A stretch of 233 nt of DNA, taken from assembly GCF_003334305.1 (NCBI RefSeq), contig NZ_QOWS01000088.1; one strand, given 5' to 3'. This stretch comes from Escherichia coli. GTDB lineage: Bacteria > Pseudomonadota > Gammaproteobacteria > Enterobacterales > Enterobacteriaceae. Below the pieces are notes generated by a model. The model saw only the letters and a list, made by a program, of their open reading frames with translations, had not been told where the DNA came from and made no database searches. The position numbers and the translations under genes were made by a program. Positions 1-233 of this stretch are shown piece after piece (the first letter of the stretch is position 1; each line of letters begins with the position of its first letter).

Positions 1-12
1 CCGGATATCCGG
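1..12. repeat. Perfect 12-bp palindrome CCGGATATCCGG (central GATATC flanked by CCGG on each side)
   Basis: Read directly: positions 1-12 are identical to their own reverse complement. It abuts the window edge, so any extension of the symmetry upstream cannot be assessed. Within frame +1 it encodes P-D-I-R. Confidence 0.9.
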
Positions 13-233
13 TTAAGCCCGCATCTTTACCTGGCGACCAACAGCGCACAGGGGCCGTGGTGGATACTGGGGTGGTCAGAGCGGGTGCCGGGTGCTGAGG
101 ACGTACTGCCAGCGCCGCTGCCGCCGTACCGGGTGCTTACCGGGCTGGCAGACCGTTTCGGGCGGACGCTGACTTTCCACCGGGCAGCTAAGGGTGACGT
201 GGCGGGCGCGGTGACGGGGGTGACGGACGGCGC
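1..233 (+). CDS. Internal fragment of a protein-coding gene (frame +1, partial at both ends); hypothetical protein of unknown function
   Basis: Frame +1 (codons at 1-3, 4-6, ...) has no stop codon across all 77 complete codons, whereas frames +2 (TAA 14-16, TGA 170-172), +3 (TGA 96-98, TAA 189-191) and all three reverse frames contain stops. Hand-counted positional GC is about 73% (pos 1), 57% (pos 2), 77% (pos 3), the GC3>GC1>GC2 pattern expected of a real gene, with G enriched at codon position 1 (31 of 77). Amino-acid composition is varied (W, Y, F, H, K, D, E present), unlike the Ser/Pro/Thr/Ala-rich antisense translation. No ATG occurs anywhere on the + strand and no terminal stop is present, so both gene ends lie outside the window. 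At this GC content an open 77-codon frame arises by chance about one time in five, so confidence is moderate. Confidence 0.55.
82..95 (+). repeat. Perfect tandem direct repeat of the heptamer CGGGTGC (2 copies)
   Basis: Read directly: 82-88 CGGGTGC and 89-95 CGGGTGC. The overlapping 9-mer CCGGGTGCT (88-96) recurs at 129-137 in a different reading-frame phase, so the repetition is at DNA level rather than protein level. Confidence 0.85.
193..231 (+). repeat. Short-period coding repeat: GGTGACG motif three times (193-199, 210-216, 219-225) encoding G-x-x-x-G-x-x-x-G-x-x-x-G
   Basis: Read directly: GGTGACG occurs at 193-199, 210-216 and 219-225; 211-219 (GTGACGGGG) and 220-228 (GTGACGGAC) form an imperfect in-frame 9-bp tandem (7 of 9 identical). 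In frame +1, glycine falls at codons 65, 69, 73 and 77 (193-195, 205-207, 217-219, 229-231), giving GDVAGAVTGVTDG with Gly every fourth residue. The pattern runs to the end of the window. Confidence 0.5.

What the first reader, a model, noticed from the sequence alone, without database searches (positions are those of the whole stretch)
1..233. Whole window is intragenic: a GC-rich gene of unknown function with strongly G-ending codons
Only frame +1 is open across the window, and the GC3>GC1>GC2 pattern supports real coding on the + strand. Third-position G (about 42 of 77 codons) far exceeds third-position C (about 17), with CTG, CCG, GCG, CGG and GGG favoured. Typical high-GC genomes such as Pseudomonas or actinomycetes prefer C-ending codons, so 69% GC with G-ending bias is unusual and may mark a horizontally acquired gene, for example in a GC-rich island or prophage of an enterobacterial-type host. 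No function can be assigned from 77 residues without a homology search.
Basis: partly seen in the sequence, partly recalled or inferred. Interest (0 to 1): 0.3.

Follow-up and report, generated by a model that had tools for sequence, protein, structure and literature searches.

The report
E. coli Rhs toxin gene fragment
The window is an ordinary piece of a well-known E. coli Rhs toxin gene (codons 164-240), whose GC-rich, G-ending codon usage is a classic trait of that family; the only extra is that it spans the join where two neighbouring Rhs genes fused in one strain.

Summary
Frame +1 is the only open frame, GC3>GC1>GC2, and third-position G:C is 42:17. The window matches E. coli strain A7 at 100% and lies in the annotated frame of a 1,417-aa "RHS element core protein" (codons 164-240). 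The locus has the usual Rhs layout: yncH, vgrG, rhs, dsORF-h1, an ISAs1 remnant, pptA. The full protein passes NCBIfam RHS_core (2676 bits against a cut-off of 2000).

The G-ending bias is gene-wide. At four-fold sites G:C is 398:139 in the core and 1070:798 in host genes (p=8e-13). CGG, GGG and ACG drive it. CTG, CCG and GCG are also the host's favourite codons. GC is 64% in the core, 50% in the flanks and 31-36% in the toxin tip, which is the composition described since the 1990s.

One new detail: the window spans a recombination join at bases 157-173 (codons FGRTLT). Upstream sequence equals the RhsD/E-type core of strain 1943, and downstream sequence equals its tandem RhsH-type core. This implies a 7,063-bp deletion fusion, found in 1 of 5,426 complete genomes.

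The gene family and its composition are already known, so interest is low.

The parts
1..233 (+). Coding sequence, frame +1: codons 164-240 of a 1,417-aa RHS element core protein (WP_240770959.1, E. coli A7). It lies between the N-terminal plug domain (DUF6531, aa 46-123) and the first Pfam-detectable YD repeat (aa 325).
   Evidence: 100% match in the annotated frame; NCBIfam RHS_core positions 164-240, E = 1e-44; Pfam domain map.
1..156 (+). Segment derived from the RhsD/E-subfamily core, the vgrG-linked first rhs gene of the yncH-pptA locus.
   Evidence: It matches rhsD-type cores at 97.7-100% over window 1-173 in many genomes. Across A7 gene nt 1-645, 150 of 151 parent-informative sites carry the strain 1943 rhs1 allele.
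157..173 (+). Crossover interval: 17 nt (TTCGGGCGGACGCTGAC, codons F216-G-R-T-L-T221) identical in both parental cores.
   Evidence: The last rhs1-specific site is gene nt 645 and the first rhs2-specific site is nt 663. The residues F-G-R-T-L-T are invariant in the five-sequence alignment.
174..233 (+). Segment derived from the RhsH-type core, the second tandem rhs gene, which carries dsORF-h1 downstream.
   Evidence: From gene nt 663 to the stop, 1,051 of 1,051 informative sites carry the strain 1943 rhs2 allele, and there are 0 mismatches to rhs2 over nt 646-1199. Megablast hits of rhsD-type cores stop at window base 173.
133..177 (+). Degenerate YD-type repeat motif VLTGLADRFGRTLTF. It contains the crossover.
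   Evidence: Read from the sequence against the published YD consensus YDxxGRL(I/T) (PMC10684867). There is a weak collinear alignment to Tse5. This is an inference, with no confident structural model behind it.
205..233 (+). Start of a second degenerate YD-type motif, GAVTGVTDG(AGRRFHL), which runs past the window end.
   Evidence: Weak alignment to Tse5 'GLLTGVRDSAGRSYAL'. Inference only.

Best explanation
The window is codons 164-240 of an Escherichia coli Rhs (rearrangement hot spot) core gene at the yncH-pptA (rhsE) locus, directly downstream of vgrG.

Inferred by homology: the protein is a polymorphic toxin carrier. A short N-terminal PAAR-like segment and a DUF6531 plug mount it on the VgrG spike of a type VI secretion system. 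About 1,100 residues of YD repeats form a closed beta-shell. A C-terminal aspartyl-protease plug (DPIGL...DSLGL) would cut off the AT-rich toxin tip held inside the shell. The small AT-rich downstream ORF (dsORF-h1) is the presumed immunity gene. The window encodes the stretch just after the plug, most likely the first, degenerate YD hairpins of the shell.

Shown: its 69% GC and G-ending codons are the family-wide composition of E. coli Rhs cores (64% GC; CGG, GGG and ACG enriched) in a 50% GC host. Whether this reflects foreign origin is inferred.

Shown: in this strain (A7) the gene is a chimera. Nucleotides 1-645 come from the RhsD/E-type core and nucleotides 663 to the end come from the RhsH-type core that lies 7 kb downstream in tandem in strains such as 1943. 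The crossover falls in a 17-nt identity island at window 157-173.

Inferred: an unequal crossover or deletion removed 7,063 bp. That segment held the first core's shell, toxin tip and candidate immunity ORFs, IS remnants, and the 5' end of the second core. The result places the RhsH shell, toxin and immunity pair behind the vgrG-linked RhsE N-terminus.
For: Identity and frame:
- 100% match to NZ_CP028767.1 inside CDS AOY58_RS11075, in frame.
- NCBIfam RHS_core hit on the window, E = 1e-44. The full protein scores 2675.8 bits against a cut-off of 2000, with YD_repeat_2x and Rhs_assc_core also hit.
- Pfam finds DUF6531 at 46-123, 13 RHS_repeat hits (10 below E = 0.001) and PF03527.
- The best solved relatives are T6SS Rhs effectors: Tse5 8cp6 (E = 5e-122), 7q97 and 8qja.
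- The upstream gene is VgrG, TIGR03361 627 bits.
- The tip is 31-36% GC and dsORF-h1 is 33% GC. The DPIGL...DSLGL motif starts at aa 1231.

Mechanism by homology: the Tse5 structure paper describes the plug at 48-124, the YD barrel and aspartyl-protease release of the toxin (PMC10684867).

Composition:
- Four-fold G:C is 398:139 in the core and 1070:798 in the host, p = 8e-13.
- The same bias occurs in all five cores examined: four-fold G fraction 0.67-0.74, CGG fraction 0.37-0.49 against 0.09 in the host.

Chimera:
- There is a single switch of parental alleles: 150 of 151 informative sites up to nt 645 match rhs1, then 1,051 of 1,051 match rhs2.
- The yncH-to-pptA interval is 9,235 bp in A7 and 16,298 bp in strain 1943.
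- The protein alignment shows the switch at FGRTLT|FHRAAKGD.
- Both parental segments are common: 321 and 236 records at >=99%.
- The full window above 90.1% identity occurs in 1 of 5,426 genomes, and the exact protein is recorded on 1 contig.

Literature: two rhs types occur together at this position in SE11 and S. sonnei (PMC2935791). Recombination between a main rhs and a downstream rhs that fuses a new toxin has been shown experimentally in Salmonella (PMC3967940).
Against: - No experiment here shows expression, T6SS dependence, toxicity or immunity for this gene. I did not check whether strain A7 has a T6SS.
- The PAAR assignment is weak (Pfam PAAR_motif E = 0.16).
- The structural role of residues 164-240 rests on weak collinear alignments. 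The AlphaFold model was uninformative there (pLDDT 27-38).
- A 17-nt identity tract is shorter than the roughly 23-27 bp usually quoted, from my own knowledge, as the minimum for efficient RecA recombination in E. coli. Longer tracts (70, 54 and 35 nt) exist elsewhere in the cores and were not used. So the recombination mechanism, or the exact parental alleles, remain uncertain.
- Naming the second core 'RhsH' rests on NCBI's product name dsORF-h1 and on my recollection of Wang et al. 1998, which I could not read.
Confidence: 0.93

Rival explanations
1. The join at window 157-173 is an assembly artefact: two tandem Rhs cores were collapsed into one in the A7 genome record, and no real chimeric gene exists.
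For: Only one complete genome and one contig carry the join. Tandem 4-kb repeats are a known assembly hazard. The other chimera found (SCU-152) lies in a record with frameshifted rhs and vgrG, which suggests sequence errors.
Against: The two cores are only 76.6% identical and the shared tract at the join is 17 nt. That is shorter than the overlaps or k-mers assemblers normally use, which I state from general knowledge. The A7 gene is an intact 1,417-codon ORF with a clean single switch and no noise on either side.
Confidence: 0.04
2. The G-ending codon bias is not a foreign signature. It only reflects E. coli's own preference for CTG, CCG and GCG, together with the Gly/Arg/Pro/Ala/Leu-rich composition of YD repeats or leading-strand GC skew.
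For: CTG, CCG and GCG are the host's commonest codons in their boxes. Host genes themselves have G3/(G3+C3) = 0.555 and some reach 0.67-0.69. The overall G3/(G3+C3) of RhsD/E-type cores (0.55) equals the host value.
Against: Within four-fold boxes, which removes amino-acid composition, the core is 74% G against 57% in the host (p = 8e-13). CGG is 49% against 9%, GGG 35% against 15% and ACG 56% against 28%. Most of the 11 E. coli rhs positions in Table 3 of PMC2935791 are listed on the forward strand at sites all round the chromosome, which argues against replication skew. GC3 is 0.70 for the whole rhs gene and about 0.76 in the core, against about 0.41-0.66 in flanking host genes.
Confidence: 0.12
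3. The chimera did not arise by an intrachromosomal deletion in the A7 lineage. It arose elsewhere (by gene conversion or in another strain) and the whole locus was then imported by homologous recombination.
For: vgrG shows clustered mismatch patches between A7 and strain 1943, up to 17 per 100 nt, so imported segments occur at this locus. The N-terminal 300 residues of E. coli Rhs proteins are a patchwork across the population.
Against: Both sides of the join are essentially identical to the two tandem genes of one present-day strain (1 mismatch in 662 nt; 0 in nt 646-1199). The downstream flank to pptA is also shared. The size difference equals the spacing of the two cores. No other genome carries the join. 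In either scenario a crossover between an E-type and an H-type core at this site is still required.
Confidence: 0.1
4. The window is non-coding, or its true gene is on the minus strand.
For: Frame -1 has only one stop, giving a 68-codon shadow ORF. Open frames are common by chance at 69% GC.
Against: The + frame is part of a 1,417-codon ORF with family hits above the curated threshold. G is enriched at codon position 3 (p = 0.002). No Rfam family matches.
Confidence: 0.01

Closest known systems
E. coli Rhs elements (RhsA-H; Hill laboratory), specifically the RhsE/RhsH tandem site at yncH-pptA ('position 6' of Jackson et al. 2009)
   Same: It has the same locus, the same layout (vgrG, GC-rich core, AT-rich tip, small downstream ORF, ISAs1/H-rpt remnant) and the same composition. 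The sequence is 97.7-100% identical to rhsD-type cores over window 1-173 and 100% identical to the dsORF-h1-linked core over 157-233 (PMC2935791).
   Different: This allele fuses the two subfamily cores at a join seen in only one of 5,426 complete genomes. The canonical arrangement keeps the two genes separate and in tandem.
Salmonella Typhimurium rhs-main / rhs-orphan recombination (Koskiniemi et al. 2014, PMC3967940)
   Same: Recombination between an upstream full-length rhs and a downstream rhs sequence creates a chimera that puts a different toxin behind the delivery-competent N-terminus. A simple deletion also removes the first toxin's immunity gene.
   Different: In Salmonella the partner is a 5'-truncated orphan that shares 522 bp at 95% identity near the 3' end of the core, and the event followed a duplication. 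Here both partners are full-length genes of different subfamilies (76.6% identical). The crossover is in the 5' region (codon 216-221) at a 17-nt tract, so the whole shell is swapped and not only the tip.
Pseudomonas aeruginosa Tse5 (PDB 8cp6; PMC10684867) and other solved T6SS Rhs effectors (7q97, 8qja, 8uy4, 8h8a)
   Same: It shares the DUF6531 N-terminal plug, the YD-repeat barrel and the C-terminal aspartyl-protease plug. Full-length E = 5e-122 to Tse5.
   Different: Residues 169-294, which include most of the window, do not align confidently. The E. coli proteins have about 55 extra residues there, including a Ser/Pro-rich stretch. The toxin tips are unrelated.
C-terminal displacement model of rhs diversification (Jackson et al. 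2009)
   Same: Homologous recombination between rhs core sequences at one locus reshuffles which toxin is expressed.
   Different: That model concerns 3' core fragments attached to displaced tips, and it requires very high identity within a clade. Here the exchange point is near the 5' end and lies between different subfamilies.

Membership tests
RHS element core protein (NCBIfam NF041261, equivalog) | Whole-protein score above the curated cut-off of 2000 bits, end-to-end match to the 1,261-position profile | tested here: met
   2675.8 bits, protein 1-1257 aligned to profile 1-1261. The window alone aligns to profile 164-240, E = 1e-44.
Rhs / YD-repeat toxin family | Multiple YD (RHS) repeats forming the shell | tested here: met
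   13 Pfam RHS_repeat hits between aa 325 and 907, 10 of them below E = 0.001. TIGR01643 YD_repeat_2x scores 170 bits in 6 stretches.
Rhs / YD-repeat toxin family | RHS-associated core domain with the DPxGL...DPxGL aspartyl-protease motif that marks the core/tip boundary | tested here: met
   TIGR03696 scores 82.7 bits at 1180-1257 and PF03527 has E = 3e-14. The motif DPIGL-x18-DSLGL starts at aa 1231, and its second copy has S in place of P. Cleavage itself was not tested.
Rhs / YD-repeat toxin family | N-terminal plug domain (DUF6531) | tested here: met
   PF20148 E = 1.4e-18 at aa 46-123. It aligns to the Tse5 plug from Pro48.
E. coli Rhs element (composite, sensu Hill) | GC-rich core, AT-rich core extension, AT-rich downstream ORF, and a linked H-rpt (ISAs1) and vgr gene | tested here: met
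   The core is 64% GC, the tip 31-36%, dsORF-h1 33% and the flanks 50%. vgrG is annotated upstream and an ISAs1 pseudogene downstream.
T6SS PAAR-Rhs effector | PAAR domain at the N-terminus that caps VgrG | tested here: inconclusive
   The sequence begins MSGKPAARQGD, but the Pfam PAAR_motif hit is weak (E = 0.16, aa 3-20, matching only model positions 52-69).
T6SS PAAR-Rhs effector | T6SS-dependent delivery, a toxic C-terminal domain and neutralisation by the cognate immunity protein | not testable with these tools
   This needs competition assays. The tip has HExxH and only a weak Peptidase_M91 hit (E = 0.039). dsORF-h1 has no NCBIfam hit. I did not check whether A7 has a T6SS.
RhsD/E subfamily core (window 1-173) | Near-identity to K-12 rhsD / rhsE-locus cores | tested here: met
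   97.7% to K-12 rhsD and 100% to several rhsD-annotated genes over window 1-173. There is 1 mismatch in 662 nt to strain 1943 rhs1.
RhsG/H subfamily core (window 157-233) | Identity to the core linked to dsORF-h1 and placed in tandem downstream of RhsE | tested here: met
   100% to strain 1943 rhs2, which is followed by 'RHS element protein dsORF-h1'. The subfamily name comes from annotation and from Wang et al. 1998 as cited in PMC2935791. I could not read the primary paper.

The most novel reading that the evidence does not exclude
Crossovers between different Rhs subfamily cores may not be random. They may cluster in the roughly 150-residue stretch just behind the N-terminal plug, at short identity islands that encode conserved YD-type motifs such as FGRTLT. 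This would act as a selected 'N-terminal module swap': a VgrG-matched delivery head is re-attached to a whole foreign shell-toxin-immunity cassette, complementing the known C-terminal tip displacement.

Three hints point this way. Two independent singleton chimeras (A7 at gene nt 646-662, SCU-152 at about nt 760-772) both join in this stretch although longer identity tracts lie elsewhere. Residues 150-300 are a patchwork across the E. coli population. Jackson et al. 2009 held that recombination between cores of different loci is rare.
Probability: 0.12. Interest if true: 0.35.

Novelty: already known. Interest (0 to 1): 0.12.

Why it matters
As a gene call it matters little. Rhs cores and their GC-rich, atypical codon usage in E. 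coli have been described since about 1990, and NCBI already annotates this gene.

The join inside the window is a clean natural example of two tandem rhs genes of different subfamilies fusing. The fusion swaps which toxin sits behind the vgrG-linked N-terminus and discards the first toxin and its candidate immunity ORFs. Laboratory work showed the same kind of event in Salmonella. It is useful as an illustration of how toxin repertoires turn over, but it is not a new principle.

Tried and rejected
- PDB sequence search with the 77-aa window alone gave only chance-level hits (E >= 0.018).
- PDB search with residues 120-330, and a 5-sequence profile, gave only weak collinear matches across the window region. 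The 'first YD hairpins of the shell' reading therefore stays an inference.
- The AlphaFold2 model of residues 1-460 with a 26-sequence alignment had mean pLDDT 42 and 27-38 over the window. I discarded it and ran no fold search.
- The search for homologous proteins returned only Escherichia, Shigella and Salmonella Rhs proteins at 72-93% identity among the 120 listed. This confirms the family but is too shallow for modelling or for tracing a donor.
- An Rfam search of the window at E <= 1 found nothing.
- The repeat search found only a 12-nt two-copy direct repeat and a 13-nt imperfect inverted repeat, both probably chance.
- Wang, Zhao & Hill 1998 could not be read by PubMed id or PMC id.
- The 1,417-aa cluster members (for example P0123, on 100 contigs) looked like possible sister chimeras. 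They proved to be RhsH-type throughout the window, with only a small RhsE-like patch at aa 40-64.
- The SCU-152 join is also unique to its genome, with the next best match at 85%.
- Rejected: prophage origin (no phage genes at the locus), a minus-strand gene, and a non-coding region.

Full report
**1. The observation.**
The 233-nt window is 69.1% GC. Frame +1 has no stop codon, and the other five frames have 4, 3, 1, 2 and 2 stops. GC at codon positions 1, 2 and 3 is 0.73, 0.57 and 0.77. Third-position counts are G 42, C 17, T 10 and A 8, and CCG, CTG, CGG, GGG, GVG-type GTG and GCG are the commonest codons.

Shuffling shows the open frame alone is weak evidence at this GC content. 75% of shuffles have at least one open frame, and a given frame is open in 15.5% of them. 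The excess of G at position 3 is significant, since only 10 of 5,000 shuffles reach 42.

**2. What the window is.**
Megablast against 5,426 complete E. coli genomes gives a 100% full-length match to strain A7 (NZ_CP028767.1, 2341256-2341488), under a CDS annotated 'RHS element core protein'.

In the fetched locus (L001) the gene spans 11512-15765 on the + strand. The window starts exactly 163 codons into it, so frame +1 is the annotated frame and the window is codons 164-240 of 1,417. The gene order around it is:
- yncG and yncH
- vgrG
- rhs
- dsORF-h1
- an ISAs1 pseudogene
- pptA

This is the rhsE site of K-12 and 'position 6' of Jackson et al. 2009 (PMC2935791).

The family assignment is secure:
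- The 77-aa translation hits NCBIfam RHS_core positions 164-240 at E = 1e-44.
- The full protein scores 2675.8 bits against a curated cut-off of 2000, and also hits YD_repeat_2x and Rhs_assc_core.
- Pfam finds DUF6531 at aa 46-123, RHS repeats from aa 325, PF03527 at about aa 1154-1189 and only a weak PAAR hit.
- The best solved relatives are T6SS Rhs effectors, led by Tse5 8cp6 at E = 5e-122.
- The upstream gene is a bona fide VgrG at 627 bits.
- No Rfam family matches the window and it holds no meaningful repeats.

**3. Composition.**
The core (codons 1-1230) is 64% GC, the C-terminal tip 31-36%, dsORF-h1 33% and the flanking host DNA 50%.

G3/(G3+C3) is 0.712 in the window, 0.61 in the core and 0.555 in 18 host genes. 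Within four-fold codon boxes, which removes amino-acid composition, G:C is 398:139 in the core against 1070:798 in the host (p = 8e-13). The window shows 35:4.

Codon share within its four-fold box:

| Codon | Core | Host |
|---|---|---|
| CGG | 49% | 9% |
| GGG | 35% | 15% |
| ACG | 56% | 28% |
| CCG | 80% | 49% |
| GCG | 66% | 39% |

CGG, GGG and ACG are the codons where the core departs furthest from the host. CTG, CCG and GCG are also the host's most used codons in their boxes, so they do not by themselves mark foreign DNA.

All five cores examined share the bias, with a four-fold G fraction of 0.67-0.74 and a CGG fraction of 0.37-0.49. The window is an upper-range sample of its gene: top 6.5% for GC and top 23% for G3 share.

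A G+C-rich core with an A+T-rich extension, and three core subfamilies (rhsABCF, rhsDE, rhsGH), are textbook descriptions of Rhs elements (PMC2935791). Wang, Zhao & Hill 1998 argued that the subfamilies diverged before acquisition by E. coli (cited; I could not read the paper). Jackson et al. see clade I rhs as long-resident in Escherichia. Foreign origin is therefore plausible but was not tested here.

**4. An unexpected detail: a recombination join inside the window.**
Only strain A7 has the full window at more than 90.1% identity. Hundreds of genomes match window 1-173 at 97.7-100% under rhsD-type genes, and those alignments stop at base 173.

Strain 1943 carries two full-length rhs genes in tandem at this locus. 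The first, rhs1, is linked to vgrG and is RhsD/E-type. The second, rhs2, lies 7 kb downstream and is followed by dsORF-h1.

The A7 gene compares with these two as follows:
- Nt 1-662 differ from rhs1 at one base (position 545).
- Nt 646-1199 differ from rhs2 at no base.
- Over the whole gene, 150 of 151 parent-informative sites up to nt 645 carry the rhs1 allele, and 1,051 of 1,051 from nt 663 to the stop carry the rhs2 allele.

The crossover therefore lies in gene nt 646-662, which is window 157-173 (TTCGGGCGGACGCTGAC, codons F216-G-R-T-L-T221). The protein alignment shows the switch as ...LADRFGRTLT | FHRAAKGDVAGAVTG....

The yncH-to-pptA interval is 9,235 bp in A7 and 16,298 bp in strain 1943. 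The 7,063-bp difference equals the spacing of the two cores. The simplest history is an unequal crossover or deletion between the tandem cores. That event would have removed:
- the rhs1 shell and toxin tip
- two small candidate immunity ORFs
- IS1 and ISAs1 remnants
- two further ORFs
- the 5' end of rhs2

The two parental cores are 76.6% identical, and the 17-nt tract is one of 22 tracts of 17 nt or more. Longer tracts of 70, 54 and 35 nt lie at nt 2000-3100 and were not used.

Both parental segments are common, with 321 and 236 records at 99% or more. The exact chimeric protein is on record from one contig only.

A second chimera, in strain SCU-152, switches at about nt 760-772 and is also unique to its genome. 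Its gene and vgrG are annotated as frameshifted.

Across the wider protein collection, residues 150-300 are a patchwork of at least three sequence types, with some in-frame deletions.

**5. How it most likely works.**
This section is inferred by homology to Tse5 and other solved Rhs effectors (PMC10684867):
- The N-terminus and the DUF6531 plug attach the protein to VgrG.
- The YD repeats form a closed barrel that holds the C-terminal toxin.
- The aspartyl-protease plug (DPIGL...DSLGL) would cut the toxin free.
- The downstream ORF is presumed to give immunity.

The window follows the plug and precedes the first confidently detected YD repeat. It contains two motifs that resemble degenerate YD hairpins: VLTGLADRFGRTLTF and GAVTGVTDGAGRRF. 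Weak collinear alignments to Tse5 support this reading. The AlphaFold model was too poor to support or refute it.

The fusion puts the RhsH shell, toxin and immunity cassette behind the vgrG-linked RhsE head. This parallels the main/orphan rhs recombination shown in Salmonella (PMC3967940). It differs in that both partners are full-length genes of different subfamilies and the exchange point is near the 5' end.

**6. Verdict.**
The gene, its family and its composition are already known. The join is a tidy singleton example of a known kind of event. Interest is low, at about 0.12.

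Noticed in passing
L001:15208-15762 (aa 1233-1417 of the A7 Rhs protein) and L001:15777-16226: The AT-rich toxin tip carries an HExxH motif (GLGHEFAHAQ) and a weak Pfam Peptidase_M91 hit (E = 0.039), so it may be a zinc-metallopeptidase-type toxin. The downstream dsORF-h1 (149 aa, 33% GC) has no NCBIfam hit and is the presumed immunity gene. In the core/tip boundary motif the second DPxGL copy reads DSLGL.
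   Followed up: partly
L002:3001-7257 (E. coli SCU-152): This is a second rhs1/rhs2 chimera at the same locus, with a different crossover (gene nt about 760-772). It is also unique to its genome. Its rhs and vgrG are annotated as frameshifted, possibly from assembly errors.
   Followed up: partly
Alignment A2, residues 150-300 of E. coli Rhs proteins (window codons included): The region is a population-wide patchwork. At least three N-terminal sequence types are combined in different ways with FHRAAKGDVAGAVTG, YRREAAGDLAGEITG or FHREAAGELAGEITR variants. Several database proteins (P0112, P0113, P0108, P0099) have in-frame deletions of 26-43 alignment columns in this stretch.
   Followed up: partly
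L001:9337-11445 (vgrG) compared with strain 1943 (L006): Mismatches between the two strains' vgrG genes are clustered, with up to 17 per 100 nt around position 2001-2100 of the compared region (L001 about 10300-10400) next to stretches with none. This suggests recombination patches in vgrG as well.
   Followed up: no
L006 (strain 1943), between rhs1 and rhs2: locus 8429-11182: The 7-kb segment missing from A7 holds two small ORFs directly after rhs1 (WP_000759878.1 and WP_001001073.1, candidate immunity genes), IS1 and ISAs1 remnants, a hypothetical protein and a DUF3969 protein. I did not check whether A7 keeps copies elsewhere. If it does not, A7 may be sensitive to the rhs1 toxin of its relatives.
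   Followed up: no
window 1-233, minus strand frame -1: Frame -1 has only one stop, giving a 68-codon shadow ORF. This is typical of GC-rich coding DNA and is not evidence of an antisense gene.
   Followed up: yes
window 101-113 / 144-156 and 85-96 / 126-137: There is a 13-nt imperfect inverted repeat (85% complementary) and a 12-nt two-copy direct repeat (GTGCCGGGTGCT / GTACCGGGTGCT). Both are probably chance in GC-rich sequence.
   Followed up: no
L001 aa 249-295 of the Rhs protein (just downstream of the window): A Ser/Pro/Ala-rich, low-complexity stretch (AQRAEAFRKQRATSLSSPAGPRSASSSSAFPDTLPAG) has no counterpart in Tse5 and carries indels between subfamilies. It may be a surface loop or linker inserted in the first turns of the shell.
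   Followed up: no
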